Source of the DNA: Dehalococcoidia bacterium
GTDB lineage: Bacteria; Chloroflexota; Dehalococcoidia; UBA2979
Assembly (NCBI GenBank): GCA_965262725.1
Contig: OZ253555.1
Coordinates: 3,072,001-3,136,000 of the forward strand
Direction of reading: 5' to 3'
DNA: 64,000 bases
Numbering within the stretch: the stretch's first letter is position 1; every line of letters starts with the position of its first letter. Below are positions 1,974 to 63,692 of this stretch, piece by piece. Position numbers and translations under genes: made by a program. The notes beneath the pieces were generated by a model. That model did no database searches. It had not been told where the DNA came from and saw nothing but the letters and a program-made list of their open reading frames with translations.

Positions 1974-3959
1974 TCACTCGTTACCCGCGGGTCCCGGCGG
2001 TCCGGGCGGGATCGTCGCTTCGGGCGCCGGCTCGGGGGTCGCTTCCGGCGTCGGCTCCGGCGTCGCTTCCGGCGTCGCTTCCGGCGTCGGCTCCGGCGTC
2101 GCTTCCGGCGTCGGCTCCGGCGTCGCTTCCGGCGTCGGCTCCGGCGTCGCTTCCGGCGTCGGCTCCGGCGTCGCTTCCGGCGTCGCTTCCGGCGTCGCTT
2201 CCGGCGTCGCTTCCGGCGTCGCTTCCGGCGCAGATACCCGCATCAGCACTTGCTGCCCGACGAAGGCGACGCCGTCCGAGACCACGAGCGTCACCCCGTA
2301 GACGCCGGGCGCCTCCGGCGCGCGCCAAGTGACAGCTCCCGAGCCGTCGTCACCCTCGACGCTGCCGCCGGTCACGCGCCAGTTCGGATCGAGGTACGGG
2401 CCGTAGGGGAGGAGCAGCGTCGCCCTGCCCTCCTCCTGATACACCGCCAGGAGATCCCAGACGTCGGGCAGCGAATCGTCGGCCGAGGCGGGCTCGATGA
2501 CGGCGCCCGCGAGCCCGAAACGCTCCGCGAGCTCGAGCCGGAACGCGAGCGAGTAGCGGTTCTCGATCCACACCGTGCGCTCGCCGCCGCGACCGACAAA
2601 GCGAACGGCGACGGCGCGCGCCTGCTCGTCCCACGTGAGCCCCGTGCCACCGCGCGAGCGATCGAGGATCGCGGCGCGCACGGTCACGGCGCTCCCCGGC
2701 GCGATCGCGCCGCTCACCTGCGTCTCGATGGCGGTCGCCAGCGAGAGCGCCTCGAGCCGCGAGAGCGGCTCGAGCCCCTCGGGCGTCCGCAGCTGCGAAC
2801 GCCGGTCCACGACGAGCAGAACTCTCTCGATCGGGACGCCGTCCCGCCTGGCGGACTCGAGGGCCTGCTCGAGGCGATCGTAGTAGGCGCCCCGGTCGGC
2901 GGGCGCGTGCACCCACAGCCGCGAGGCGGCGCTCGCGAGCGCGCGCCAGTCGTAGGCGCCAGTGTCCGAGCCGAGCGGCATCGGCACGCTCACGGCAAGC
3001 TCGCGTCCCGAGTCCTCGAGCAACGAGCCGAGCCGCTGCACGAGGCCGGTGAAGGCGTCGCGGCGCGCCGGATCCACGGCGCGGTAGTCGAGGTGGACGC
3101 CGGCCGCGTCGGCGGCGTCGGCCACTGCGGCGATCTCCTGCGCGTGCACCTCGACGAGAGCGGCGTCGGCAAGCACGCGGTCAACGAGGGCCGAGAGCGG
3201 GCCGGCCGGGGCTTCGACGCCGACGTAAACGGCGTCACCCCTGCGCTCCGCGGCCGCCCGCGCGGCCGCGAGCGCCCCCGCCTCGAACTCAATCCCCCCG
3301 AGCGCCCCACCGGTCTCAGGCGTCTCGGGGGACGCGGCGCGTACACTGACCACGGAGCCGGCCGGCGCGCCGTCGTCCGGCTGCTCGCCGGGTCCGACGA
3401 CGAGCGCCAGCTCGCGCGCCAGCGACTCGCGCCTGAGCACCGCGATCGTCCCCGGGACGACCGGCACCTCCCCCAGGGCGGAGGAGCCGTCGCCGATGGG
3501 GATGGCGGAGCCGAGCCGCTCCCAGCTCCCGTCCCGCCAAGTGTAGAGCGCGAGATTGCGCGCGTCGGCGGTCGGCTCGCTCAGCTGGACGGTGAGCCGC
3601 GCCGCACCCGAGAAGGTCTCGGGATCGGCGACTTCGATGTCGTAGAGGGCGGAGAGCGCGATGAGGCCCTCCGGCAGCTCCGGCAGCTCCTCGCGCGGCC
3701 GGATCGCGAACGCCTCGCTCTCCCCACCCCCCGTCCGCTCGAGGATGGAGACCGGGGGAAGCAGCAGGATAGCGATGACGGCCGCGAGGCCAACCACGAT
3801 CGCGGCGACGCGCAGCATCTGCCCGTCGCCATCGCCGCCCTCGTCGTCGGAGCCGTCCCCGTACCCGTAGGGGGGCTTGCCGTCCTCCTCCTCGTCGCCG
3901 AAGAGGACCGGCGCGAAACGCGGCGGCTCGGAGAAGTAGTCGCGCTCGCGATCATCCAT
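1974..3959 (-). CDS. Membrane-anchored protein with GH18-like barrel, PKD/Ig-like domain and Pro/Thr-rich tail
   Basis: One N-terminal TM helix; AAGVHLDY and AYDWRALA GH18-like segments; TWRAPEAPGVYGVTLVVSDG; (PEAT/PEPT)18. Confidence 0.55.
   Translation of the reverse strand: MDDRERDYFSEPPRFAPVLFGDEEEDGKPPYGYGDGSDDEGGDGDGQMLRVAAIVVGLAAVIAILLLPPVSILERTGGGESEAFAIRPREELPELPEGLIALSALYDIEVADPETFSGAARLTVQLSEPTADARNLALYTWRDGSWERLGSAIPIGDGSSALGEVPVVPGTIAVLRRESLARELALVVGPGEQPDDGAPAGSVVSVRAASPETPETGGALGGIEFEAGALAAARAAAERRGDAVYVGVEAPAGPLSALVDRVLADAALVEVHAQEIAAVADAADAAGVHLDYRAVDPARRDAFTGLVQRLGSLLEDSGRELAVSVPMPLGSDTGAYDWRALASAASRLWVHAPADRGAYYDRLEQALESARRDGVPIERVLLVVDRRSQLRTPEGLEPLSRLEALSLATAIETQVSGAIAPGSAVTVRAAILDRSRGGTGLTWDEQARAVAVRFVGRGGERTVWIENRYSLAFRLELAERFGLAGAVIEPASADDSLPDVWDLLAVYQEEGRATLLLPYGPYLDPNWRVTGGSVEGDDGSGAVTWRAPEAPGVYGVTLVVSDGVAFVGQQVLMRVSAPEATPEATPEATPEATPEATPEPTPEATPEPTPEATPEPTPEATPEPTPEATPEATPEPTPEATPEPAPEATIPPGPPGPAGNE
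2013..2228 (-). repeat. 12-bp coding tandem repeat, 18 units (PEAT/PEPT)
   Basis: ccggcgtcgctt / ccggcgtcggct units, 216 bp, in frame. Confidence 0.95.
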
Positions 3960-4022
3960 CGGGCATCTCCTCGGGCGGGGAGCAGGAGGCTCCCGACTGC
4001 CGCGGGTCGGTTCTGAGTCCGC

Positions 4023-5192
4023 TCATACCAGGGGCACCGCCACAACGATCTCACGCTCGTCGCGAACGATCAGCAACTCGGCGATTCCGGAGACGGAGAG
4101 CGCCTTCAGAAGGTTGACAAGCGGTGTGCCGGAGTCGACGGGGCGTCCGTTCACCCCGACGACGATGTCGCCGGGCAGGAGCCCAGCCCCCTCCGCCGGG
4201 CTCCCGGGCTCGACCGCTGTGAGCAGTGCGCCCGACTCAACGGGGAGTGCCAGCTCCTCGGCGAGGCTCTCCGTCACCTCCACGTGGTGGCGGCCGGGCT
4301 GCTCGATGCCGGGCCGCGGGCGCGGGTACGCGCCCGTCTCGATGATCGCCTCGACCTGCGGGCCGAGGGAGTCCATCGACTGGGCGAATGCGACACCCTC
4401 CATCGCCCGGCCGGACGGGTCGAGCCTCACCACCGTGGTGAGCAGGCCCACGACGGAGCCGGCCGCGGTGACGAGCGCGCCACCGGAGTCGCCGTGGTTG
4501 ACGGAGGCGTCGGTCTGCACGAGGTCCTCGAGCACGACGCCGACGCGCGGCCAGCGGATGCCGGTGGCCGAGATCACGCCCGTCGTCACCTTGTTCGCCA
4601 CGCCTATCAGCCCGCCCGAGATCGCCGCGACCGGCTCGCCCGGCCGCGCAATCCGCGCCGAGCCCAAGGAGGCGCGCCTGAGGCCCCCGGGGGGGATCTT
4701 CAGCACCGCCATGTCAGTGTAGGGCGAATCCGAGCCGACCAGTATCGCCTCCCGGCGCTCGCCGGTGGTGAGCACGACGAAGAGCTGCTCGGCCTCCTCC
4801 ACGGTGTGGAAGGTGGTGAGGACGTGGCCGGCCTCGGTCACGACCACGCCGGAGCCGATGTTGTTCCGCCCGACCGTGCGCCCCTCTTCGTCGAGTCGGT
4901 CGGGAAGCTGGGCGACGACAGTGACGACGGTGGGCATGACGCGCGCGATCGCCGTCGCGAGCGGGTCGGGCGGCACGTTGGGCTGAGGCGTGGTCGTCGC
5001 CGGGGTGGAGGTGGCGACTGCGGGCGGCGGCTCCGCCTGGTCGCTCTCCCCGATCAGGAGCAGCGCGCCCACCCCGCCGGTGGCTCCGGCGACGACGCCG
5101 ACCGCGAGGGCGAGGGCCAGCAGCAGCGGCCACGTCGGAGCGAAGCCCGAAGGGCGCCTGTCGCCGGGCGCGGCGGGGGCCGAGTCGTCCAT
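4023..5192 (-). CDS. HtrA/DegP-family S1C serine protease with PDZ domain
   Basis: TM helix; GSGVV, TTFHTV, DMAVLKI, QTDASVNHGDSGGAL; C-terminal PDZ (GSPAEGAGLLPGDIVV). Confidence 0.9.
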   Translation of the reverse strand: MDDSAPAAPGDRRPSGFAPTWPLLLALALAVGVVAGATGGVGALLLIGESDQAEPPPAVATSTPATTTPQPNVPPDPLATAIARVMPTVVTVVAQLPDRLDEEGRTVGRNNIGSGVVVTEAGHVLTTFHTVEEAEQLFVVLTTGERREAILVGSDSPYTDMAVLKIPPGGLRRASLGSARIARPGEPVAAISGGLIGVANKVTTGVISATGIRWPRVGVVLEDLVQTDASVNHGDSGGALVTAAGSVVGLLTTVVRLDPSGRAMEGVAFAQSMDSLGPQVEAIIETGAYPRPRPGIEQPGRHHVEVTESLAEELALPVESGALLTAVEPGSPAEGAGLLPGDIVVGVNGRPVDSGTPLVNLLKALSVSGIAELLIVRDEREIVVAVPLV

Positions 5193-31261: not shown

Positions 31262-31351
31262 TGGCGGAGGGGGTGGGAGTCGAACCCACGACCCCGAAAC
31301 CGGGGTAAGCGCTTAGCAGGCGCCCGCACTAGGCCACTATGCGACCCCTCC
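31262..31351 (-). tRNA. tRNA-Ser (GCT)
   Basis: GGAGGGG acceptor stem, anticodon arm GGCGC-CTGCTAA-GCGCT, long variable arm, GGTTCGACT T-loop, encoded CCA. Confidence 0.95.
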
Positions 31352-46821: not shown

Positions 46822-48019
46822 CAACGCCGCCGCCGTCCGCCCGCGGAGGGCCGCCTCCTAGTGTCCTGAATTGGAAATGCGATTGAGATATCCGGTGAGG
46901 TTGGTGTGTCCCGAAGTCGAAGGGCGGGTGACGTGATGACGTAACCGGTCTGGAGACATGCTCGTCGTTGCCAGCCGGTGCGAGTCCGGCACGGGTAACT
47001 GTCAGGAGGCCCGTTAGCAGGTCGGCGGCGCGGACGGGAAACGGTCCACGTCGAAGCCCGACGTCAAGAGCCCTATCAGGGGGAGCAACCAGGCGGTCCG
47101 CAGCATCAAGCGAAGCCTGCCGCGTCGTTAACGGATAGTGGAGGAGCCGAGCCCGGCAATTCAGGGCGAAGGCCATGGACGAGGTGAAGATCCTGAATGC
47201 GCGTTGCGCTGCAGCCTCAAGGAACCTCCCGGCGTAAGGGGCGTGGAACGTTTGGAAGGTAGCGACGGGAACGGGAGAAGCCCTCCCCGGCCCGGCACCC
47301 TGCGAGATGGTGTCGGAGCGAGGTGCCCTATAACCGGTCAAAGCCGGGAAGTGGGCAGCTAGCCGGAAGGGTGACGGAGGGGGTCGTAGTACCGCTTGAG
47401 CCGGACGGACAACACAACCGCCGGTGATGGGAAGGACCCCTGCTTTGCTCACGCGTGGGGAGTAGGGATGAATCGGTGAGTGCCCAAGCGGCTAACTCCA
47501 TCCAAGACAAGGTCCGAACACTACAACGCACGCTTTACCGGGCGGCCAAGGCCGACCCCAATAGACGCTTTCATGCGCTCTACGACAAGGTTTATCGCAG
47601 AGACATTCTGGAGCGCGCGTGGGAGCAGGTGCGTCGCAATCGCGGCGCAGCCGGTATCGACGGCGTCACGCTCGCCGAGGTCGAGCGCTACGGCGTGGAG
47701 CGCCTGCTGGATGAACTGGCCACGGAACTGAAGGAGGGAAGCTACCGGGTGCAGCCGAGCCGCCGGGTCTGGATACCCAAGCCCGGTCGGTCGGAAGAGC
47801 GCCCGCTCTCGATTCCTTCGGTCCGCGACCGCATCGTGCAGGCGTCGCTGAAGCTCGTGACGGAGCCGGTCTTCGAGGCCGACTTCCTGCCATGCAGCTT
47901 CGGCTTCCGCCCGAAGCGTTCGGCCCATGACGCCCTGCAGGTCCTCATTGACGAGGCGTGGCGGGGCAGGCGGTGGGTAGTGGAGACGGACATCGCCTCG
48001 TGTTTCGAGTCGATACCGC

Positions 48020-48881
48020 GTGCGTCCGGAAGTCGAAGGGGTGGTGACGTGATGACGTGACCGGTCCGGAGACATGCTCGTTGCTGCCAGCCGGTGAGAG
48101 TCCGGCACGGGTAACTGTCAGGAGGCCCGTTAGCAGGTCGGCGGCGTGGACGGGAAACGGTCTGCGTCGAAGCCCGACGTCAAGAGCCCTATGAGGGGGA
48201 GCAAACGTGCGGTCCGCAGCATGACGCGAAGTCTGCCGCGCCGTGAGACTCGCCTGTCTATTGACAGGACCAAGGAGGAGCCGAGCCCGGGTGGTCAGGG
48301 CGAAGGCCATGGACGAGGTGAAGATCCTGGAATGCAGCCTCAAGAAACCTCCCGGCGTATGGGACGTGGAACGTACGGAAGGTAGCGACGGGAACCGGAG
48401 AAGCCCTCCCCGGCCCGGCACCCTGTGAGAGGGCGTCGGAGCGAGGCGTCCTATAACCGGTCAGAGCCGGGAAGTGGACAGCCAGCCGGAAGGGTGGCGG
48501 AGGGGGTCGTAGTACCGCTGGAGCCGGACGGACAACATAACCGCCGGTGATGGGAAGGACCCCTACTTTGTCCGTGCATGTTGCTGGGGGTGTGGACTGG
48601 TGAGTGCCCCTCGGGGCTAGCAACCACTTGGTAGGGTTCGAGGCTCTCCGCACATGCTGTACCGGCTGGCCAAGGCACGACCCACGTTGTGGGGAGCGCT
48701 GCATGCCATCTGGTGAAGGGCATCGGTGAGCCGGATGAGGGAGAACCTCACGTCCGGTTCGATGTGGCAGGGGCTGGAGACGGACGCTGCTATGGCCGTG
48801 GAGTTGGGCACCACCGGGAAACCGGCTTGGAACTGATGCGCCACCGCCTACGGCTCGCACCGCGCCAGCCCCTGACCCTAC
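48020..48881 (+). mobile_element. ORF-less group IIB intron, inner, copy 1 (862 nt)
   Basis: 5' GTGCG; DV; 3' CTGACCCTAC; removal restores the RT codon C|AC (SIP-H-DRL). Confidence 0.93.
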
Positions 48882-49347
48882 ACGACCGTCTGATGACGGC
48901 CGTCGAGGAACGGATATGCGACCGCAATCTCCTGAAGCTGGTACGGGCGATGCTGCGTGCCGGTGTGATGGAGTCGGGGGTCGTGCAGCACAGCGCGACG
49001 GGTACGCCGCAGGGCGGGGTGATGTCCCCGCTGCTGGCCAATGTCTACCTGCACCGGTTGGACCGGGACTGGGAGGCGAAGGGTGATGGCGTGCTGGTGC
49101 GCTATGCGGATGACCTCGTGGTGCTCTGCCGGAGCCGGGAGGAAGCGGAGCGGGCGTTGGCCCTGCTGCGTGACCTGCTGGGTGAGCTCGGACTGGAGCT
49201 CAAGGCGGAGAAGACGCGCATTGGGAATGATGCTCTGAATTGGCCCCACCTGGAGCCGTTTTGATCCTTTGAATTGGCCCCACCCCCGACCCATCCAGGA
49301 CCTACGCTCGGGTGACTGCATGACTCCCGGAGCGAGGGAAGAGGAGT

Positions 49348-50982
49348 GTGTCGAGAGTGGAGCTGTTCGAGTCTATCCGACGGATGGCGAGGGAGGAGGA
49401 GCTGTCGATCCATGAGCTGGGACGCCGGCATGGCGTGCACCGGCGCACGGTGCGGCAGGCTCTTGGGTCGGCGATACCCCCGGAACGCAAGCAGGCGACC
49501 CGCGTGGCCCCGAAGCTCGGGCCGTACGTCTCGGTCATCCGGGGCTGGCTCGTGGACGACCTCAGCGCGCCGCGCAAGCAGCGGCACACGGCCCGGCGCA
49601 TCTGGGAGCGCCTCGTCGACGAACACGGGGCGACGGTGGCCGAGCCCACGGTCCGCGCCTGCGTCGCGCGCCTGCGTCGCGAGATCCAGGGCGGGCGCGC
49701 GGTTGTGACGATCCCGCAGGTCCATCCTCCCGGCGAGGAGGCGGAGGTCGACTTCGGCACGGTGACGGTGTGGCTGGAGGGCGTCGAGACCCGGCTGGCG
49801 ATGTTCGTGATGCGGCTCTCGCATTCGGGGCGGGCGGCGCACGTCTGCTTCGTCGGCGAGGGCCAGGAGTCTCTGCTCGAGGGGCACGTGGTCGCCTTCG
49901 AGCGGCTCGGCGGAGTGCCGCGGCGCATCCGCTACGACAATCTGACGGCGGCCGTCACCACCGTGCTGCAGGGACGCGAGCGCCTGCAGACCGAGCGCTT
50001 CATCGCGCTCCGCTCGCATTACGGCTTCGACAGCTTCTTCTGTGAGCCCGGCATCGAGGGCGCGCACGAGAAGGGCGGTGTGGAGGGCGAGGTCGGCCGC
50101 TTCCGCCGGCGGCACTTCGTGCCGGTCCCGAAGGTGGCGACCCTCGGCGAGCTGAACGAACGAGTGCGGGAGGCGGACCGCACCGACGACGCCCGGCACA
50201 TCGAGAGCCGCCTCGCCACCGTCGGCGAGATGGGAGAGAACGAGAAGGCCTCGCTGCGTCCGCTTCCGGCGGAGCGCTTCGACCCGTCAATCCCGCTGCG
50301 CGCGAAGGTCGACCGCAAGGCGCGCATCGCCGTGCGTAGCTCCCGCTACTCGGTCCCGGCGGCCTATGCAGGCCGGAAGCTGGACGTGCGGCTGTCCGGG
50401 AACAGCCTGACCGTGTGGGCCGAGGGGCGTGAAGTCGCCCACCACGAGCGCAGCGCCCGCACCGGAGCAGAGGTCCTGCTGCTCGACCACTATCTGGAGG
50501 TGCTCGCGCGCAAGCCCGGGGCGGTCCCGGGCTCGGTGGCGCTCCAGCAGGCGCGTGCGAAGGGACACGTCACAGCCGAGCATCAGCGCTTCTGGGACCG
50601 CGCCCGCCGCAAGCTCGGCGACCGCGCGGGCACGCAGGCGTACATCGAGGTCCTGCTCCTGCATCGCCATCTTCCCTTCACGGCGGTGCACGCCGCGCTC
50701 GGGACGGTCAACAGGATCCAGTCGGTGAACCCCGAACTGGTCGCCATCGAGGCGCGCCGTCTCGCCGACCGCAGGCCACCAGACGCCGCCGTCGAGAGAC
50801 CGCACCTGGAGCGCTACGACCGACCTGCCCCGCTCCTCGATGGCTACGATGCGCTGCTCTCGGGTGATTCCCGATGGCCCGGCACGTCGCCGGGCGGGCG
50901 CTCCCGCGCTCCGCGGTCTGCCGAGAACGCGTCGCACACCACCACAACCGCCGTCACCGCTGCGGTGTCGACGGCACGCTGA
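49348..50982 (+). CDS. istA: IS21 transposase
   Basis: PRKQRHTARRIWERL, PGEEAEVDFG, YDNL, HEKGGVE. Confidence 0.93.
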   Translation: MSRVELFESIRRMAREEELSIHELGRRHGVHRRTVRQALGSAIPPERKQATRVAPKLGPYVSVIRGWLVDDLSAPRKQRHTARRIWERLVDEHGATVAEPTVRACVARLRREIQGGRAVVTIPQVHPPGEEAEVDFGTVTVWLEGVETRLAMFVMRLSHSGRAAHVCFVGEGQESLLEGHVVAFERLGGVPRRIRYDNLTAAVTTVLQGRERLQTERFIALRSHYGFDSFFCEPGIEGAHEKGGVEGEVGRFRRRHFVPVPKVATLGELNERVREADRTDDARHIESRLATVGEMGENEKASLRPLPAERFDPSIPLRAKVDRKARIAVRSSRYSVPAAYAGRKLDVRLSGNSLTVWAEGREVAHHERSARTGAEVLLLDHYLEVLARKPGAVPGSVALQQARAKGHVTAEHQRFWDRARRKLGDRAGTQAYIEVLLLHRHLPFTAVHAALGTVNRIQSVNPELVAIEARRLADRRPPDAAVERPHLERYDRPAPLLDGYDALLSGDSRWPGTSPGGRSRAPRSAENASHTTTTAVTAAVSTAR

Positions 50983-50998
50983 CCACAGGAGGCACCCG

Positions 50999-51781
50999 AT
51001 GACAGCACCCCTCACCGACCAGGCCGCGGAGCTGACAATCGAGGCGATCTGCCGCGAGCTCCGTCTCCCCACCGTCAGGAAGCAGGCGCTCCCGCTCGCC
51101 GAAGCCGCGGTCCGAGACCGGATCACCCATCTGGGCTATCTCGCCGAAGTGCTGGGAGCCGAACGCGATGACCGTGAGGAGCGGCGCCGTCAGCGCCGTA
51201 TCGTCGAGGCGCGGTTCCCGCGTTTCAAGTACCTCGCCGACTTCGACCTCGAGGCGGCGCCGACAGTCGACGCGCCGGCGCTCGCCACGCTGGAGCGCTG
51301 CGACTGGGTCGAAAGGGGCGAGCCCGTCGTCCTGCTCGGTGACAGCGGCACCGGGAAGTCACACCTGCTCATCGGCCTCGGCATGGCCGCCTGCCACCTG
51401 GGGCTGCGCGTGCGGTACATGACCACGGCCGCCCTGGTGAATGAACTGGCCGAAGCGTCGGATGATCGCGCGCTCTCACGCCTCGTCGCCCGCTACGGCC
51501 GCCTCGACCTGCTCTGCCTGGATGAGTTCGGGTACGTCCACCTCGACCCGCGCGGTGCCGAAATGCTGTTCCAGATCCTGACCGAGCGCGAGGAACGGGC
51601 ATCGGTCGCCGTCGCCTCCAACTCCCCGTTCTCCGAGTGGGGCCGCATCTTCACCGACCCTCGTCTCGCCGCGGCCGTCGTTGACCGCCTCACCTACCGT
51701 GCCCATATCATCGAGACCGGCACCGAGTCCTACCGGCTCCGGGCCTCGACCTCCCCGAGAGGAGGTGCCCCAACGACCTGA
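50999..51781 (+). CDS. istB: IS21 helper ATPase
   Basis: GDSGTGKSH, LCLDEFGY, AAVVDRL. Confidence 0.93.
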   Translation: MTAPLTDQAAELTIEAICRELRLPTVRKQALPLAEAAVRDRITHLGYLAEVLGAERDDREERRRQRRIVEARFPRFKYLADFDLEAAPTVDAPALATLERCDWVERGEPVVLLGDSGTGKSHLLIGLGMAACHLGLRVRYMTTAALVNELAEASDDRALSRLVARYGRLDLLCLDEFGYVHLDPRGAEMLFQILTEREERASVAVASNSPFSEWGRIFTDPRLAAAVVDRLTYRAHIIETGTESYRLRASTSPRGGAPTT

Positions 51782-52035
51782 TCCCGGTCCCCGGGGGTGG
51801 GGCCAGATCAGAGGATCAAAGTGGGGCCAGATGTAAGCATCATTCCCACGCGCATCGTGCACCTGCGGGAGGGAGGCGAGGGGCTGGAGTTCCTCGGCTT
51901 CGAGCATCGCTGGGTACGTGCGAAGCGCAACAAGAATATCCAGTTCCTCGCACGCTGGCCCTCACGGCGAGCGATGCAGCGGGCGCGGGACCGCATCCGT
52001 GAAATCACGGCGCGGTTGCGTCTGCTGCTGAGTCC

Positions 52036-53453
52036 GGTCACGTCCCGGCAAGTGGTGTCACTGCGCATCATCCTTATCATTTGTTAGCCGGCAGCCTGCA
52101 GCAGCACCTCCTTGCCTGACGTGAGCTCACTCCCCGGCGGGGAGAGCAGCGTCATCATCGTCATGTAGCGCCGCCCCACGGCCCACTCGTCGTGCTGCTC
52201 GGAGAGCACCGCACCGATGAGCCGGATGACCGCTGAGCGGTTGGGGAAGATGCCGACCACGTTGGTGCGCCGGCGGATCTCCTTGTTGAGCCGCTCCTGG
52301 GGGTTGTTCGACCAGATCTGCCGCCAGTGCGCCACCGGGAAGGCCGTGAACGCCAGGATCTCCTCCGCGGCGTCGGCGAGCATTGCCGCGGCCTGCGGGA
52401 AGCGCGCACCGAGCTGCTCCACGACCCGCGTGTGCTGGGCGTGCACCTCGGAGGCCGAGGGCTGCTGGTAGATGGTGCGCACGGTCGTCGCCACCAGCGC
52501 CTCGGCGCTCTTCGGCACGCGTGTGAGCAGGTTCCGCATGAAGTGGGTACGGCAGCGCTGCCAGGAGGCGCCGCCGAAGACGGTCGCGATCGCTCCCCTC
52601 AGGCCCTGGTGGGCGTCGGAGGTCACCAGCTCCACGCCGGAGAGCCCTCGTGCTACGAGGCCGCGGAGAAATGCCAGCCAGAAGGCCCCGTCCTCGCTGG
52701 TACCGACGTCGATGCCCAGCACCTCGCGCTTCCCCTCCACGTTGACCGCGGTGGCGACGACGACGCTCACCTGGGCGATGCGGCCCTCCTCGCGCACCCG
52801 CTGGGTGAGCGCGTCGAGCCAGAGGTATCGGTAGGGGCCGGAGTCCAGGGGCCGGCCGAGGAAACTTGTGACGACCGTGTCGAGCTCCGAGCAGATACGC
52901 GAGACCTGGCTCTTGGAGATGCCCTCGCAGCCGAGCGAGCGCACGAGGTCGTCGACGCGGCGAGTGGAGACGCCCTCCACGTACGCTTGCTGGACGACGG
53001 CTAGCAAGGCGCGCTCTGAGCGGCGCCGGGGCTCGAGCAGCGCCGGGAAGTAGGACCCCTGGCGGAGCTTCGGGATCTGCAGGTCGATGCTGCCCACCCG
53101 CGTGTCCCAGCGTCTTTGCCTGTAGCCGTTGCGCCGGGTGGTGCGCATCTCGCTGCGCTCGCCGTAGCCGGCGCCGACCTGCGCCGAGACCTCCTGGTCC
53201 ATGACCGCCTCGGCGAGCACAGCCACCGCTTCGCGCAGGAAATCGAGGTCAGCTCCCGATGCCTGCTTGCGGAGCAGTTCCAACACGTCCACGCTCTCTC
53301 TGACCACCGTCGTCCTCCTCCACGTTCGTCATAACTTCGTGAAGGATGATGCGGTGGTCTCTTACGTCCACCTGCATGGGCACCGTGGTCGGTAGTAGGT
53401 CCCCCTGCGGAGACCGTCTCCCCGCCTGTGACACCACTTGCTGGGACGCTACT
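52036..53453 (-). mobile_element. IS256-family element
   Basis: 25-bp imperfect IRs (GGTCACGTCCCGGCAAGTGGTGTCA / TGACACCACTTGCTGGGACGCTACT); 8-bp TSD CTGAGTCC at 52028-52035 and 53454-53461. Confidence 0.92.
52084..53307 (-). CDS. IS256 (Mutator) transposase
   Basis: RNGYR, IPKLR, GVSTRRV, YLWLDA, SDAHQG, WQRCRTHF, ERLNKEIRRR. Confidence 0.94.
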   Translation of the reverse strand: MVRESVDVLELLRKQASGADLDFLREAVAVLAEAVMDQEVSAQVGAGYGERSEMRTTRRNGYRQRRWDTRVGSIDLQIPKLRQGSYFPALLEPRRRSERALLAVVQQAYVEGVSTRRVDDLVRSLGCEGISKSQVSRICSELDTVVTSFLGRPLDSGPYRYLWLDALTQRVREEGRIAQVSVVVATAVNVEGKREVLGIDVGTSEDGAFWLAFLRGLVARGLSGVELVTSDAHQGLRGAIATVFGGASWQRCRTHFMRNLLTRVPKSAEALVATTVRTIYQQPSASEVHAQHTRVVEQLGARFPQAAAMLADAAEEILAFTAFPVAHWRQIWSNNPQERLNKEIRRRTNVVGIFPNRSAVIRLIGAVLSEQHDEWAVGRRYMTMMTLLSPPGSELTSGKEVLLQAAG

Positions 53454-54040
53454 CTGAGTCCCCGGCAGGTCGTGGAGGAAGTCAATCGCTACCTCCGCGG
53501 CTGGATGAGCTACTTCCGCTACGGCAACTCGGCGAGGGCGTTCGACGTCCTGCACTGGTTTGCCATGTGGAGACTCAAACTCTGGCTGGGGAAGCGGTTG
53601 CGTTGGCGGCGACGCCATCGCGGGCACCCGTTTCCCGTCGCCGACCGTCTGGGGCTCATCTCGCTAGCTGGACAGCGCGTCGTGGCACCACGGCCATATC
53701 GACCGTGGCGGGGCACCCCGCATGCCGCCCGGTGAAGGGCATCGGTGAGCCGGATGAGGGAAAACCTCACGTCCGGTTCGAGGCGGCAGGGGCTGGAGAC
53801 GGACGATGCTACGGCTGTGGAGATGGGCGCCACCGGGAAACCGGCCTGGCAATATGCGCCACCGCCTACGGCTCGCACCGCGCCAGCCCCTGACCCTACT
53901 CAAGGATCTGGTCCGCGGACTTGTGCCAGATGAAGCGCCTCCGGTGCTCGTTTCCAGTTGCGACCCAAGCCTCCACTGAGCGGACCAGGCCTGCGAGGCT
54001 CGGTGCGATTGTTTTCAGCATTTGCAACTCGGGACACTAG

Positions 54041-59280: not shown

Positions 59281-59662
59281 CCGTCCGGCTCCGGCCACCC
59301 TCCGGCGAACCGAGCCGCATCCTACCGCCGAGTCGCCGTAGGGGCCCACCGCCGCGTCCGGCGGAGCGCCGGGCGCCTGCTACCGTGGCGGCATGCCTTA
59401 CGGCGAGCGGGCGGAGCTGGCGGAGGCGAGAGGCGGACGGTGCGCCCATTGCCGGGCGCCTACCGAGCGCGCCTGCCTCGCCTGCGCGCAGCTCGTCTGC
59501 CCCGGCTGCGAGGAGCGGCACGACCGTGAATGGCCCCACCGAGCCTACGGGGAGATCTAGGCCGATCAGTGGCTGGTCTAGTGTCCTGATTCGTAATAGC
59601 GACAGATAACGGGTATGGTGGCACAGCGGGGTTTTGCCCCATGGGGCAGACTCTGGAGTGTC

Positions 59663-62600
59663 ATGAGCACCCGAATCGGACGGCCGACGGTCGCGATCGT
59701 CCTGAGCGACGAGGAGCGTGAGACGCTGGAGCGGTGGGCGCGCCGGCCGACATCGGCCCAGGCGCTGGCGCTGCGCTGTCGCATCGTCCTGGCAGCGGCC
59801 GAGGGGACATCGAATAAAGCGATCGCCGCGGCGCTCGATTGCCATCCGGTCACCGTCGGCAAGTGGCGCCGGCGCTTTGCGCAGGGGCGGCTCGATGGGC
59901 TACAGGATGAGCCGCGCCCCGGGGCGCCGCGCACGATCGCCGATGCACAGGTGGAAGCGGTGATCGTCACGACGCTGGAGGAGCAGCCTCCCAACGCGAC
60001 GCACTGGTCGACCCGATCGATGGCAGCCGCGGTCGGGATGTCGCAGTCGGCGATCTTCAGGATCTGGCGCGCCTTCGGCCTGAAGCCGCACCTCGTGGAG
60101 AGCTTCAAGCTGTCGCCCGACCCGCAGTTCATCGACAAGGTGCGCGACGTGGCCGGGCTCTATCTCAACCCGCCCGACGCGGCGGTTGTGCTGTGCGTGG
60201 ACGAGAAGACCCAGATCCAGGCACTCGACCGCACCGCGCCGACGGTGCCGATGATGCCCGGCGTCCCCGCCCGCCAGACGCACGACTACATCCGTCACGG
60301 CACGACGAACCTCTACGCGGCGCTCGATGTCGCCTCGGGATGCGTGATCACGGAGATGACCCCCCGGCACCGGGCTCGGGAGTTCCAGCAGTTCCTCGCC
60401 CTCATCGACCAAAGCGTTCCCCGTGAGCTGGCGGTGCATGTCGTGCTCGACAACGTCTCCACGCACCGCACGCCCGCCATCCAGCGCTGGCTCCAGCGCC
60501 ATCCCCGCTTCACCTTCCATTTCACGCCGACCTACAGCTCCTGGATGAACCTCGTGGAGCGCTGGTTTGCAGAGCTCACCAGCAAGTGGCTCCGGCGCGG
60601 CACGCACCATAGCGTCCCTGATCTGATCCGCTCAGTGGAGATGTGGGTCGCCAGCTGGAACGAGAATCCGAGGCCCTTCATCTGGCACAAGTCCGCGGAC
60701 CAGATCCTTGAGTAGGGTCAGGGGCTGGCGCGGTGCGAGCCGTAGGCGGTGGCGCATATTGCCAGGCCGGTTTCCCGGTGGCGCCCATCTCCACAGCCGT
60801 AGCATCGTCCGTCTCCAGCCCCTGCCGCCTCGAACCGGACGTGAGGTTTTCCCTCATCCGGCTCACCGATGCCCTTCACCGGGCGGCATGCGGGGTGCCC
60901 CGCCACGGTCGATATGGCCGTGGTGCCACGACGCGCTGTCCAGCTAGCGAGATGAGCCCCAGACGGTCGGCGACGGGAAACGGGTGCCCGCGATGGCGTC
61001 GCCGCCAACGCAACCGCTTCCCCAGCCAGAGTTTGAGTCTCCACATGGCAAACCAGTGCAGGACGTCGAACGCCCTCGCCGAGTTGCCGTAGCGGAAGTA
61101 GCTCATCCAGCCGCGGAGGTAGCGATTGACTTCCTCCACGACCTGCCGGGGACTCAGCAGCAGACGCAACCGCGCCGTGATTTCACGGATGCGGTCCCGC
61201 GCCCGCTGCATCGCTCGCCGTGAGGGCCAGCGTGCGAGGAACTGGATATTCTTGTTGCGCTTCGCACGTACCCAGCGATGCTCGAAGCCGAGGAACTCCA
61301 GCCCCTCGCCTCCCTCCCGCAGGTGCACGATGCGCGTCTTCTCCGCCTTGAGCTCCAGTCCGAGCTCACCCAGCAGGTCACGCAGCAGGGCCAACGCCCG
61401 CTCCGCTTCCTCCCGGCTCCGGCAGAGCACCACGAGGTCATCCGCATAGCGCACCAGCACGCCATCACCCTTCGCCTCCCAGTCCCGGTCCAACCGGTGC
61501 AGGTAGACATTGGCCAGCAGCGGGGACATCACCCCGCCCTGCGGCGTACCCGTCGCGCTGTGCTGCACGACCCCCGACTCCATCACACCGGCACGCAGCA
61601 TCGCCCGTACCAGCTTCAGGAGATTGCGGTCGCATATCCGTTCCTCGACGGCCGTCATCAGACGGTCGTGTAGGGTCAGGGGCTGGCGCGGTGCGAGCCG
61701 TAGGCGGTGGCGCATCAGTTCCAAGCCGGTTTCCCGGTGGTGCCCAACTCCACGGCCATAGCAGCGTCCGTCTCCAGCCCCTGCCACATCGAACCGGACG
61801 TGAGGTTCTCCCTCATCCGGCTCACCGATGCCCTTCACCAGATGGCATGCAGCGCTCCCCACAACGTGGGTCGTGCCTTGGCCAGCCGGTACAGCATGTG
61901 CGGAGAGCCTCGAACCCTACCAAGTGGTTGCTAGCCCCGAGGGGCACTCACCAGTCCACACCCCCAGCAACATGCACGGACAAAGTAGGGGTCCTTCCCA
62001 TCACCGGCGGTTATGTTGTCCGTCCGGCTCCAGCGGTACTACGACCCCCTCCGCCACCCTTCCGGCTGGCTGTCCACTTCCCGGCTCTGACCGGTTATAG
62101 GACGCCTCGCTCCGACGCCCTCTCACAGGGTGCCGGGCCGGGGAGGGCTTCTCCGGTTCCCGTCGCTACCTTCCGTACGTTCCACGTCCCATACGCCGGG
62201 AGGTTTCTTGAGGCTGCATTCCAGGATCTTCACCTCGTCCATGGCCTTCGCCCTGACCACCCGGGCTCGGCTCCTCCTTGGTCCTGTCAATAGACAGGCG
62301 AGTCTCACGGCGCGGCAGACTTCGCGTCATGCTGCGGACCGCACGTTTGCTCCCCCTCATAGGGCTCTTGACGTCGGGCTTCGACGCAGACCGTTTCCCG
62401 TCCACGCCGCCGACCTGCTAACGGGCCTCCTGACAGTTACCCGTGCCGGACTCTCACCGGCTGGCAGCAACGAGCATGTCTCCGGACCGGTCACGTCATC
62501 ACGTCACCACCCCTTCGACTTCCGGACGCACGCGGTATCGACTCGAAACACGAGGCGATGTCCGTCTCCACTACCCACCGCCTGCCCCGCCACGCCTCGT

Positions 62601-63692
62601 CAATGAGGACCTGCAGGGCGTCATGGGCCGAACGCTTCGGGCGGAAGCCGAAGCTGCATGGCAGGAAGTCGGCCTCGAAGACCGGCTCCGTCACGAGCTT
62701 CAGCGACGCCTGCACGATGCGGTCGCGGACCGAAGGAATCGAGAGCGGGCGCTCTTCCGACCGACCGGGCTTGGGTATCCAGACCCGGCGGCTCGGCTGC
62801 ACCCGGTATCTTCCCTCCTTCAGTTCCGTGGCCAGTTCATCCAGCAGGCGCTCCACGCCGTAGCGCTCGACCTCGGCGAGCGTGACGCCGTCGATACCGG
62901 CTGCGCCGCGATTGCGACGCACCTGCTCCCACGCGCGCTCCAGAATGTCTCTGCGATAAACCTTGTCGTAGAGCGCATGAAAGCGTCTATTGGGGTCGGC
63001 CTTGGCCGCCCGGTAAAGCGTGCGTTGTAGTGTTCGGACCTTGTCTTGGATGGAGTTAGCCGCTTGGGCACTCACCGATTCATCCCTACTCCCCACGCGT
63101 GAGCAAAGCAGGGGTCCTTCCCATCACCGGCGGTTGTGTTGTCCGTCCGGCTCAAGCGGTACTACGACCCCCTCCGTCACCCTTCCGGCTAGCTGCCCAC
63201 TTCCCGGCTTTGACCGGTTATAGGGCACCTCGCTCCGACACCATCTCGCAGGGTGCCGGGCCGGGGAGGGCTTCTCCCGTTCCCGTCGCTACCTTCCAAA
63301 CGTTCCACGCCCCTTACGCCGGGAGGTTCCTTGAGGCTGCAGCGCAACGCGCATTCAGGATCTTCACCTCGTCCATGGCCTTCGCCCTGAATTGCCGGGC
63401 TCGGCTCCTCCACTATCCGTTAACGACGCGGCAGGCTTCGCTTGATGCTGCGGACCGCCTGGTTGCTCCCCTGATAGGGCTCTTGACGTCGGGCTTCGAC
63501 GTGGACCGTTTCCCGTCCGCGCCGCCGACCTGCTAACGGGCCTCCTGACAGTTACCCGTGCCGGACTCGCACCGGCTGGCAACGACGAGCATGTCTCCAG
63601 ACCGGTTACGTCATCACGTCACCCGCCCTTCGACTTCGGGACACACCAACCTCGCCGGATATCTAGAGCGCATCCCTGAATCGGGACACTAG
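59663..63692 (+). CDS. IS630 transposase, join(59663-60711, 63647-63692); as interrupted it reads to a stop at 60715
   Basis: HWSTR, CVDEK.QIQAL, YIRHGT, LDNVSTH, SSWMNLVERWF; the rejoined end reads DQILDNLAGYLERIPESGH*. Confidence 0.92.
60876..63075 (-). CDS. ltrA: Group II intron RT/maturase lacking an En domain, join(63075-62532, 61669-60876), 445 aa after inner-intron splicing
   Basis: RT motifs including RYADD, X domain LRGWMSYFR; 544+794 nt = 446 codons. Confidence 0.92.
61670..62531 (-). mobile_element. ORF-less group IIB intron, inner, copy 2
   Basis: Inverted copy of 48020-48881 at the same RT codon. Confidence 0.93.

What the first reader, a model, noticed from the sequence alone, without database searches (positions are those of the whole stretch)
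48020..48881. ORF-less satellite intron reprogrammed at EBS1, EBS2 and EBS3 to home into its own lineage's RT gene (twintron, two copies)
Seen: the 862-nt inner intron is colinear and similar to the outer ribozyme, but all three exon-binding sites differ and covary with its own target. Outer: EBS1 CAATT (47157-47161) pairs with IBS1 GGTTG (46899-46903), EBS2 CGGATA (47132-47137) with TATCCG (46889-46894), and EBS3 A47237 with T53900. Inner, at the aligned positions: EBS1 GTGGT (48291-48295) pairs with ACCGC (48015-48019), EBS2 GACTCG (48247-48252) with CGAGTC (48006-48011), and EBS3 T48360 with A48882. It lies in the sense orientation inside the His codon of the RT motif DIASCFESIP-H, so only its precise splicing yields the 445-aa RT. 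The same arrangement is at 61670-62531. Established: nested and ORF-less group II introns are known, e.g. in Methanosarcina and Thermosynechococcus, so the concept is not new. Inference: this is a dedicated hyperparasite that targets a conserved helper motif, ensures co-transcription with the maturase it needs, and makes RT expression depend on splicing.
Basis: partly seen in the sequence, partly recalled or inferred. Interest (0 to 1): 0.85.

Follow-up and report, generated by a model that had tools for sequence, protein, structure and literature searches.

The report
ORF-less intron nested in helper RT gene
An 862-base self-splicing group II intron that has lost its own reverse-transcriptase gene sits inside the reverse-transcriptase gene of its relatives, a known kind of nested parasite that here occupies every helper copy in the genome.

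Summary
Window 48020-48881 (+), with an identical copy at 61670-62531 (-), is a complete ORF-less group II intron. It has 5' GUGCG, a D1 core (RF02003, 102.8 bits), D5, and an enlarged D6 with a bulged A. It is colinear with the surrounding RT-encoding intron and lies in sense inside the His codon of RT motif DIASCFESIP|H. Removing it in silico restores a 445-aa RT (RVT_1 + GIIM, no endonuclease domain).

The 3.67-Mb genome holds 28, of which 24 are full length and 100% identical:
- 12 lie in all 12 family-A outer introns.
- 3 lie in all 3 copies of a second outer family, about 80% identical to A.
- 1 is a tandem repeat.
- 12 lie at other sites.

The 12 other sites carry the predicted IBS2/IBS1/IBS3. 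EBS1 covaries with the 5' exon in 30 of 33 further family members. No outer copy in this genome is empty. Empty relatives exist in other genomes.

The element is therefore retargeted and recently mobile, but not exclusively dedicated to the RT site. Splicing and trans-mobilisation are inferred, because no RNA junction was found.

The closest precedents are the Thermosynechococcus TeI3/TeI4 and Methanosarcina nested introns. I rate it a new member of a known kind.

The parts
48020..48881 (+). Inner ORF-less group II intron, copy 1 (862 nt; 5' GTGCG, 3' CTAC)
   Evidence: RF02003 matches 48088-48224 at 102.8 bits. RF00029 matches 48726-48881 at 37.5 bits.
61670..62531 (-). Inner ORF-less intron, copy 2, identical to copy 1
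   Evidence: 862/862 identical. (RF02003 at 62327-62463, minus strand).
48247..48252 (+). Inner EBS2 GACTCG, 5' of an 18-nt inserted hairpin that outer family A lacks
48291..48295 (+). Inner EBS1 GTGGT, a terminal loop closed by a CCCG/CAGGG stem
48360..48360 (+). Inner EBS3 (T). The aligned base is A in family A, family B, G003 and the three G008 copies aligned.
48006..48019 (+). Homing site in the RT gene: IBS2 CGAGTC (48006-48011), 3-nt spacer, IBS1 ACCGC (48015-48019). 48019 is the first base of the His codon.
48728..48760 (+). Inner domain 5 (AGC triad, 2-nt bulge)
48766..48877 (+). Inner domain 6, enlarged by an insert of roughly 90 nt. The bulged branch-point candidate is A48875, 7 nt from the 3' end.
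48570..48727 (+). Inner domain 4 remnant. It keeps about 100 nt of the ORF 5' end, including the GTGAGTGCCC start region, and about 30 nt of the ORF 3' end. About 1.2 kb of ORF is deleted. Limits are approximate.
46904..53899 (+). Outer RT-encoding group II intron (family A), copy 1. It holds the inner intron and two IS insertions.
60712..63646 (-). Outer family-A intron, copy 2 (2935 nt; 2073 nt without the inner intron)
47476..48019 (+). RT coding part 1 (codons 1-181 plus the first base of His182), copy 1. The matching part of copy 2 is 62532-63075 (-).
   Evidence: RVT_1 profile positions 1-83
60876..61669 (-). RT coding part 2 of copy 2 (rest of His182 through the stop): RVT_1 profile positions 90-204 plus the GIIM maturase domain
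49222..51847 (+). IS21-like insertion in the RT gene of copy 1 (IstA-like 49348-50982, IstB 50840-51781), with an 8-bp target duplication
52036..53453 (-). Mutator-family IS insertion in the RT gene of copy 1 (transposase 52084-53307), with an 8-bp target duplication
59615..60712 (+). IS630-type (DDE_3) transposase frame. Its 3' end is the homing site of outer family A, and the intron is antisense to it.

Best explanation
The 862-nt element is a structurally complete, non-autonomous (ORF-less) group II intron. It arose from an RT-encoding intron of the same family by deletion of about 1.2 kb of the domain-4 ORF. Changes at EBS1, EBS2 and EBS3 redirect it to a 15-nt site (IBS2, 3-nt spacer, IBS1, then A) that encodes the conserved RT motif ...CFESIP|H of its relatives.

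It spread recently by retrohoming and retrotransposition. It filled all 15 family-A and family-B RT genes of this genome and 12 other sites that resemble the target. Because the RT lacks an endonuclease domain, insertion most likely used replication forks.

Inferred steps: the family-A RT, translated from mRNA from which the inner intron has been spliced, acts in trans as maturase and reverse transcriptase for the inner intron. RT production in this genome therefore depends on inner-intron splicing.
For: Ribozyme hallmarks:
- RF02003 scores 102.8 bits for the inner intron, against 93.7 for outer copy 1.
- D5-D6 matches RF00029 at 37.5 bits, E 1.3e-5, ending exactly at 48881.
- The fold gives a D5 with a 2-nt bulge and a D6 with a bulged A 7 nt from the end.

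Deletion origin: the inner intron keeps the start and end of the ORF, and G003's 2073-nt intron carries about 1.2 kb between them.

Targeting:
- 10 of 12 ectopic sites carry IBS1 and IBS2, p about 1.6e-15.
- EBS1-IBS1 pairs in 7 close lineages. EBS2-IBS2 pairs clearly in 5 of them; the two G008 copies need an IBS2 about 6 nt further upstream.
- At the EBS3 column six outers have A with T at +1, while the inner has T with A at +1. G018 reads differently and its 3' end was not located.
- 30 of 33 further family members have at least 4 of 5 EBS1-IBS1 pairs. The mean is 4.30, against 2.13 for shuffled exons, with a maximum of 2.88 in 2000 shuffles.
- The consensus fold leaves all three sites unpaired.

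Recent mobility:
- There are 28 copies, of which 24 are full length and 100% identical.
- The identical intron sits in family B, which is only about 80% identical to A.
- One tandem copy sits at the occupied 5' junction.

Helper integrity: 9 of 12 family-A copies give an intact 445-aa RT after excision.

RT type: RVT_1 + GIIM, with no endonuclease domain.

Strand bias: 9 of 9 ectopic copies in replichores with clear GC skew have the intron sense strand on the G-rich strand.

Empty forms:
- G003 has an uninterrupted 87%-identical outer intron.
- In run X6 (library kind unknown), two contigs join 61669 to 62532, skipping exactly 862 nt.
Against: No spliced RNA junction or lariat was seen, and no strand-specific expression data are available.

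Every family-A and family-B RT gene in this genome is interrupted, 15 of 15. Maturase-dependent splicing therefore faces a bootstrapping problem unless the inner intron self-splices or another protein helps.

The D5-D6 match is 2.5 bits below Rfam's gathering score.

Intact RT frames and identical copies could simply reflect a very recent burst, or copy homogenisation during assembly polishing, rather than ongoing function.

The inner intron is about 13% diverged from family A in D1-D3. It is an old separate lineage, yet it was found in no other genome searched (0 of 40 relatives).
Confidence: 0.8

Rival explanations
1. Spent parasite. The inner intron spread while uninterrupted helper RT genes still existed. 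It has now inactivated all of them. It no longer splices efficiently, so families A and B and the inner intron are all dead in this genome and will decay.
For: 15 of 15 A/B RT genes are interrupted and no empty copy exists in G000. No RNA junction was found. IS elements have already landed in several twintrons. Three of 12 family-A copies no longer give an intact RT.
Against: 24 copies are still 100% identical. 9 of 12 RT frames are intact after excision. The inner ribozyme fits the D1 model better than the outer. All catalytic hallmarks are intact.
Confidence: 0.15
2. The inner intron is spliced and mobilised by the RT of the unrelated Rfam D1D4-6-class introns in the same genome, not by the family-A RT. 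These have about 10 copies with uninterrupted 379-residue tblastn matches and are 38% identical to the family-A RT.
For: Uninterrupted RT matches of that class exist at about 10 places, and the class was identified. This would remove the bootstrapping problem.
Against: The inner intron keeps the domain-4 start region and a ribozyme 87-92% identical to family A. [quoted passage not shown] From established knowledge, group II maturases are as a rule specific for closely related introns. The T. elongatus assays show relaxed specificity only among 87%-identical IEPs (PMC2882425, passages read).
Confidence: 0.07
3. It is not an independent intron. It is a segmental duplication of the outer ribozyme or an assembly artefact.
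For: Inner and outer introns share 87-92% identical stretches, which can confuse assemblers.
Against: The 862-nt unit has the same exact ends at 28 places, 12 of them outside any outer intron. Contigs in an independent run skip exactly 862 nt. It has its own EBS set, matched by its own flanks.
Confidence: 0.01

Closest known systems
Thermosynechococcus elongatus TeI3 (ORF-less) inside TeI4 (RT-encoding) twintrons (Mohr, Ghanem and Lambowitz 2010, PMC2882425; passages read)
   Same: - The ORF-less intron derives from the RT-encoding lineage by one ORF deletion, with N- and C-terminal ORF remnants.
- Diverged EBS sequences give new targets.
- The inner intron is inserted in the helper's IEP ORF.
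- Inner copies are identical to one another.
- The genome also holds 28 introns.
- There are insertions into IS elements.
   Different: - There the insertion lies between two start codons, so the IEP can be made from the second ATG without splicing, and two introns keep continuous ORFs.
- Here the site is codon 182, inside the RT domain, and 15 of 15 helper genes are occupied.
- The structural class and host differ. The Rfam model here is D1D4-4, the RT has no endonuclease domain, the DNA is high in G+C, and the RT's nearest relatives are in Actinomycetota MAGs.
Methanosarcina acetivorans nested ORF-less and RT-encoding introns (Dai and Zimmerly 2003, RNA 9:14). The paper is not held; I know it from its title in reference lists and from the description in Zimmerly and Semper 2015, PMC4424553.
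   Same: - Site-specific homing of group II introns into the sequences and ORFs of related group II introns.
- Multi-level nesting.
- No host gene at stake.
   Different: - It is archaeal, with up to five nested levels balanced by recombinational deletion.
- I could not read which ORF positions are hit, so the identity of the target motif is untested.
Trichodesmium erythraeum Tery_4732 twintron (Pfreundt and Hess 2015, PMC4649490; abstract and outline read)
   Same: A bacterial group II twintron for which sequential splicing was demonstrated. This is the kind of proof missing here.
   Different: That twintron interrupts a conserved host gene, and the inner intron does not target the helper RT.
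Non-autonomous elements that use a relative's machinery, such as SINE/LINE pairs and MITE/transposase pairs (general knowledge, recalled)
   Same: An internally deleted derivative that keeps the parts the helper protein recognises and outnumbers the helper: 28 inner copies against 15 outer copies.
   Different: Here the parasite physically interrupts the helper gene and can remove itself at the RNA level.

Membership tests
Group II intron ribozyme | Conserved boundaries: 5' GUGYG and 3' AY | tested here: met
   GTGCG at 48020 and CTAC ending at 48881. The Rfam D5-D6 alignment ends at 48881.
Group II intron ribozyme | Domain 1 core fits a curated covariance model | tested here: met
   RF02003 at 102.8 bits, against a gathering score of 49, at 48088-48224.
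Group II intron ribozyme | Domain 5 (AGC triad, 2-nt bulge) followed by domain 6 with a bulged A | tested here: met
   The fold shows both. RF00029 spans 48726-48881 at 37.5 bits, E 1.3e-5, which is 2.5 bits under the gathering score of 40. The outer intron has the same enlarged D6 and scores 41.5.
Group II intron ribozyme | EBS1/2/3 pair with IBS1/2/3 of the flanking exons | tested here: met
   Home site. 10 of 12 ectopic sites. Covariation in 7 close lineages and in 30 of 33 further members. All three sites are unpaired in the consensus fold.
Group II intron ribozyme | Splices through a lariat to give ligated exons | not testable with these tools
   The RNA-labelled runs held only short contigs inside the intron.
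ORF-less (non-autonomous) group II intron | No RT ORF in domain 4, with remnants of one | tested here: met
   Alignments show that about 100 nt of the ORF 5' end and about 30 nt of the 3' end are retained and about 1.2 kb is missing.
ORF-less (non-autonomous) group II intron | A closely related RT-encoding intron is present in the same genome | tested here: met
   12 family-A and 3 family-B copies.
ORF-less (non-autonomous) group II intron | Spliced and mobilised in trans by that RT | not testable with these tools
   Inferred from 28 near-identical copies at IBS-matching sites.
Twintron | One intron lies inside another, in sense, with exact boundaries | tested here: met
   Excision restores a 2073-nt outer intron and its RT frame.
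T. elongatus-type helper-ORF twintron | The inner intron lies upstream of an alternative start codon, so the IEP can be made without inner splicing | tested here: not met
   The insertion is at codon 182, splitting the Pfam RVT_1 match at profile positions 83 and 90.

The most novel reading that the evidence does not exclude
In this genome the helper RT and its ORF-less parasite form an obligate autocatalytic loop. Every A/B RT gene is split in its catalytic domain. No RT can be made unless the inner intron is first spliced, and that splicing in turn is stimulated by the RT. Intron activity would then be gated by a positive-feedback, possibly bistable, switch seeded by basal self-splicing. The parasite would in effect have become the regulator of its own helper.
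Probability: 0.3. Interest if true: 0.6.

Novelty: new member of a known kind. Interest (0 to 1): 0.45.

Why it matters
- It is a clean natural example of a group II intron retargeted at all three exon-binding sites. The genome supplies its own specificity data: 16 home-site and 12 off-target insertions.
- The target lies in a conserved RT motif. The target-like nucleotide sequence is present at 35 of 46 motif sites in related RT genes from other species.
- The helper is completely saturated, 15 of 15 copies. This poses a testable question: how is RT made when every gene copy needs splicing first? The T. elongatus system avoids that question through a second start codon.
- For annotation, automated pipelines are reported to miss the outer introns of twintrons (PMC8919778, passage read). 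Such genomes will therefore be under-annotated.

Tried and rejected
RNA evidence. The look-up of sequencing runs listed one run on record as RNA (X19, share 0.06) and guessed RNA runs (X20, share 0.05). Read laying put only a 263-nt contig (62118-62380) from X19 and a 179-nt contig (61890-62068) from X20 inside the inner intron. There was no spliced junction, and the rest of the twintron had no cover. The tool warns that DNA can be present in such libraries. I draw nothing from this about transcription or splicing.

Papers. Dai and Zimmerly 2003 (PMC1370365) and Simon et al. 2008 (PMC2525955) are not held. What I say about them comes from reference lists and from the review PMC4424553. No supplements were opened. 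Figures S1-S5 of PMC2882425 may bear on how closely the T. elongatus deletion and target sites resemble this case.

No report of this genome's twintrons turned up in three searches: (terms: group II intron / twintron / ORF-less; homing into related group / Methanosarcina; group II intron / ORF-less / sponge / symbiont). This is not proof of absence from print.

Interrupted RTs in other species. In the best 80 loci from the search for related loci, 0 of 80 had the RT match split near residue 181. The tool keeps the best contiguous matches and leaves out the window's own genome and near kin, so the sample is biased against twintrons.

Context of ectopic sites. Of 20 flanking frames sent to Pfam, 7 had hits and 13 had none. 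Five ectopic sites (genome 294653, 1853597, 1963038, 2536486, 3058071) remain unannotated.

G008 EBS2. For the G008 copies I could not place IBS2 at the usual distance. A GACTC-compatible match lies about 6 nt further upstream, so those two lineages are not counted as clear EBS2 support.

Split RT. An open frame of 328 codons (60876-61862, -) starts at a GTG inside the inner intron and runs in frame into the RT C-terminal half. I saw no convincing ribosome-binding site, and long chance frames are common in this G+C-rich DNA. I rejected it as evidence that a split RT is made.

Origin and terminus. They were placed only from cumulative GC skew, which is flat from 0 to 0.45 Mb and from 2.1 to 2.55 Mb. 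Three ectopic copies at 0.29-0.38 Mb and one at 2.536 Mb were therefore left out of the 9-of-9 strand count.
Full report
WHAT IS THERE

Window 48020-48881 (+) is an 862-nt element that starts with GTGCG and ends with CTAC. An identical copy lies at 61670-62531 on the minus strand.

Rfam places a group II domain-1 core in it (RF02003, 48088-48224, 102.8 bits, gathering score 49). The same model also hits the surrounding element (46972-47108, 93.7 bits) and both minus-strand copies.

At the gathering threshold, the D5-D6 model RF00029 hit only the outer introns (53745-53812 and 60799-60866, 41.5 bits). A permissive scan of the inner intron gives RF00029 over 48726-48881 at 37.5 bits (E 1.3e-5), ending exactly at the proposed 3' end.

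Folding 48700-48881 gives a D5 hairpin with the AGC triad and a 2-nt bulge (48728-48760). It also gives a long D6 (48766-48877) with a bulged A 7 nt from the end. The outer intron has the same enlarged D6.

THE TWINTRON

- Outer copy 2 is 60712-63646 (-), 2935 nt. Removing the 862 nt leaves 2073 nt with one 461-codon open frame through ...DIASCFESIPHDRL....
- From its GTG the RT is 445 aa. The halves carry RVT_1 (profile positions 1-83 and 90-204) and GIIM. No endonuclease domain was found.
- The inner intron sits in sense after the first base of the His codon.
- Outer copy 1 (46904-53899, +) also carries an IS21-like element (49222-51847) and a Mutator-family IS (52036-53453), each with an 8-bp duplication. 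Its RT is dead regardless of splicing.

ORIGIN

The inner intron is colinear with the outer ribozyme.
- BLAST gives 86.7% identity over inner 1-551 and 91.7% over 682-862.
- The differences concentrate in four places: the EBS2 region, where the inner has an 18-nt hairpin insertion; the 5-nt EBS1 loop; an 11-nt deletion; and the single EBS3 base.
- Its domain 4 keeps the ORF start region and about 100 nt of coding sequence, then jumps to about 30 nt before the ORF end.
- A same-genus genome, G003, has one uninterrupted 2073-nt intron, 87% identical to family A. About 1.2 kb of it lies between the two points that are adjacent in the inner intron.

The inner intron is thus an ORF-deletion derivative of this family. 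About 13% divergence from family A says that it is not a fresh derivative of the present outer copies.

GENOME-WIDE CENSUS

The window lies in a single 3.67-Mb contig. BLAST and end-anchored searches find 28 inner introns.
- 24 are full length and 100% identical.
- One is 857 nt long with one mismatch.
- Three are interrupted by other insertions.

Their locations:
- 12 are at the same RT position in all 12 family-A outer introns.
- 3 are at the homologous position in all 3 copies of family B, about 80% identical to A.
- 1 is a second, tandem copy at an occupied site (genome 549500-551223).
- 12 are elsewhere.

No BLAST match of the excised outer sequence spans position 1115, so no empty A or B copy exists in this genome.

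After in silico excision, 9 of 12 family-A copies give the intact 445-aa RT.

About 10 uninterrupted tblastn matches, 38% identical, belong to an unrelated class (Rfam RF02005).

ARE THE EBS ASSIGNMENTS RIGHT?

Four independent lines agree.

1. The 12 ectopic sites are a natural specificity experiment.
   - All 12 have C or T at positions -4, -3 and -1, and G or A at -2. Each is a standard or wobble partner of the EBS1 base opposite it.
   - 10 of 12 have at least 4 of 5 IBS1 pairs together with at least 5 of 6 IBS2 pairs (shifts of -2 to +1 allowed). Only 2.2% of 200,000 random genome positions do (p about 1.6e-15).
   - A follows at +1 in 7 of 12, against 14.6% at random (p 6e-4).

2. Covariation in close lineages. 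The lineages are the inner intron, families A and B, G003, two G008 copies and G018.
   - In all seven, the 5-nt loop at the EBS1 column pairs with the last 4-5 exon bases.
   - The EBS2 column pairs with an upstream exon block in five lineages. The two G008 copies fit only with a shifted IBS2.
   - At the EBS3 column, family A, family B, G003 and the three G008 copies have A with a T at +1, while the inner has T with an A at +1. G018 reads differently there and its 3' end was not located.

3. Wider family. The RT's relatives gave 80 loci from other species, mostly Actinomycetota MAGs.
   - 33 of the 80 had a recognisable 5' end and an aligned loop column.
   - 30 of these 33 have at least 4 of 5 EBS1-IBS1 pairs.
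   - The mean is 4.30, against 2.13 for shuffled exon assignments, with a maximum of 2.88 in 2000 shuffles.

4. Structure. A consensus fold of seven family members puts EBS1 in a terminal loop and leaves EBS2 and EBS3 unpaired.

Neither is met.

TARGET

The home site encodes the conserved RT motif D-I-x-x-C-F-E-x-I-P-H. I recall this as RT block 3 of group II RTs; no call tested that naming.

I scanned the 80 related loci with a pattern for this motif. 46 motif sites matched, and 35 of them have at least 4 IBS1 and at least 5 IBS2 pairs. The G003, G008 and G018 RTs have 6 of 6 IBS2 and 4 of 5 IBS1 pairs yet are unoccupied.

The site is therefore a broadly conserved landing pad. However, the inner intron was found only in G000 among the 41 genomes searched with it. 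None of the 80 loci had the RT split there, though that sample is biased against interrupted genes.

MOBILITY MECHANISM

Cumulative GC skew rises from about 0.46 to about 2.5 Mb and falls afterwards.
- All 8 ectopic copies between 0.54 and 1.96 Mb are on the + strand, and the one at 3.06 Mb is on the - strand.
- So 9 of 9 in clearly skewed regions have the intron sense strand on the G-rich strand.
- From established knowledge, that strand is the lagging-strand template. The bias fits endonuclease-less introns that insert at replication forks (review PMC4424553, passage read).
- Four copies in flat-skew zones were left out of the count.

The tandem copy is what re-insertion at the 5' junction of an occupied site would give. 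IBS2 and IBS1 are intact there and +1 is G, and two ectopic sites also have G at +1.

WHAT THE ECTOPIC COPIES HIT

In sense:
- An RNase T/ExoX-like exonuclease gene.
- An NAD kinase gene.
- A large LRR/cadherin-repeat gene.
- The RT of a D1D4-6-class intron, at a different RT motif from the home site.

In antisense:
- An IS630-type transposase gene.
- A phosphotriesterase-family gene.
- A histidine-kinase gene.

Five sites remain unannotated. 'Dedicated' is therefore too strong: the element prefers the RT site and spills over to look-alike sites.

POPULATION DATA

- In run X6 (library kind unknown), two contigs (summed depth 20) join 61669 to 62532, skipping exactly the 862 nt. X6 also shows many base differences from the window, so it holds diverged relatives. 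These contigs are either empty-site DNA alleles or spliced cDNA.
- In X1, one contig joins 60711 to 63647. This is the IS630 target without the outer intron.

COMPARISON WITH WHAT IS KNOWN

In T. elongatus, 17 ORF-less TeI3 introns share one ORF deletion with N- and C-terminal remnants.
- The introns diverged into families with different EBS sequences.
- Five TeI3 introns sit in the TeI4 IEP ORF between its first two ATGs. The IEP can therefore be made from the second ATG.
- Two TeI4 introns keep continuous ORFs.
- The inner introns are identical to one another while the outer introns have diverged.
- The TeI4c IEP mobilises both inner and outer introns (PMC2882425, passages read).

M. acetivorans shows repeated homing of introns into other group II introns (PMC4424553). 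The primary paper is not held.

The present case is the same kind of system. It differs in three respects:
- The site lies deep in the RT domain, with no bypass start.
- All 15 helper genes are occupied.
- It belongs to a different intron class and host lineage.

VERDICT

The element is a new member of a known kind.

What is shown:
- Its structure.
- Its origin by deletion.
- Its retargeting.
- Its recent spread.
- The fact that the RT frame depends on precise removal of the inner intron.

What is inferred:
- In vivo splicing.
- Use of the family-A RT in trans.
- Any regulatory role.

One caveat on '100% identical': assembly polishing can homogenise repeats.

Noticed in passing
G000 genome 733701-736485 (locus L029, about 2202-4986); also G008 loci L011, L012, L013: There is a third nesting level. 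An RT-encoding intron of another class (Rfam RF02005 D1D4-6; RT about 40% identical to family A) is inserted between inner-intron positions 722 and 723. By my reading of the sequence, that is the loop of domain 5. Introns with a similar RT lie at the corresponding place in three outer-like introns of G008. This looks like a second lineage that homes into this family's D5.
   Followed up: partly
G000 genome 549500-551223 (locus L030): Two inner introns lie in direct tandem inside one family-A RT gene. Re-insertion at the 5' junction of an occupied site would give this arrangement.
   Followed up: partly
window 46889-46903 and 53900 onwards; 60711 and 63647-63661 (-); 59615-60712 (+): All 12 family-A outer introns sit in the same target, ...GATATCCGG(T/C)GAGGTTG|TCAAGGATCTGG. 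It lies at the 3' end of an IS630-type (DDE_3) transposase frame, antisense to it, so the intron cannot be spliced out of the transposase mRNA.
   Followed up: partly
window 49222-51847 and 52036-53453: An IS21-like element (IstA-like plus IstB) and a Mutator-family IS have inserted into the RT gene of outer copy 1, each with an 8-bp duplication. Several other twintrons in the genome carry IS insertions too. The genome is heavily loaded with mobile DNA.
   Followed up: partly
window 60876-61862 (-): A 328-codon frame starts at a GTG inside the inner intron and continues in frame into the RT C-terminal half (RT motifs and maturase domain). I saw no clear ribosome-binding site. It is probably a chance frame in G+C-rich DNA, but it would matter for the bootstrapping question.
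   Followed up: no
G000 genome 1524130-1524991 (locus L023): One 'ectopic' inner copy lies in sense inside the RT gene of a D1D4-6-class intron, at a different RT motif (before ...YGFSHGFRPG...). Counting it, 17 of 28 copies interrupt an RT gene.
   Followed up: partly
G000 genome, all 28 inner copies: There is a strong strand bias that switches near 0.45 Mb and 2.55 Mb, matching the turning points of cumulative GC skew. The exceptions are two home-site copies (1452845 and 3120020), whose orientation is set by their outer intron.
   Followed up: partly
window 31265-31351 (-): An 87-nt tRNA match (RF00005, 52.4 bits), long for a tRNA. I did not look further.
   Followed up: no
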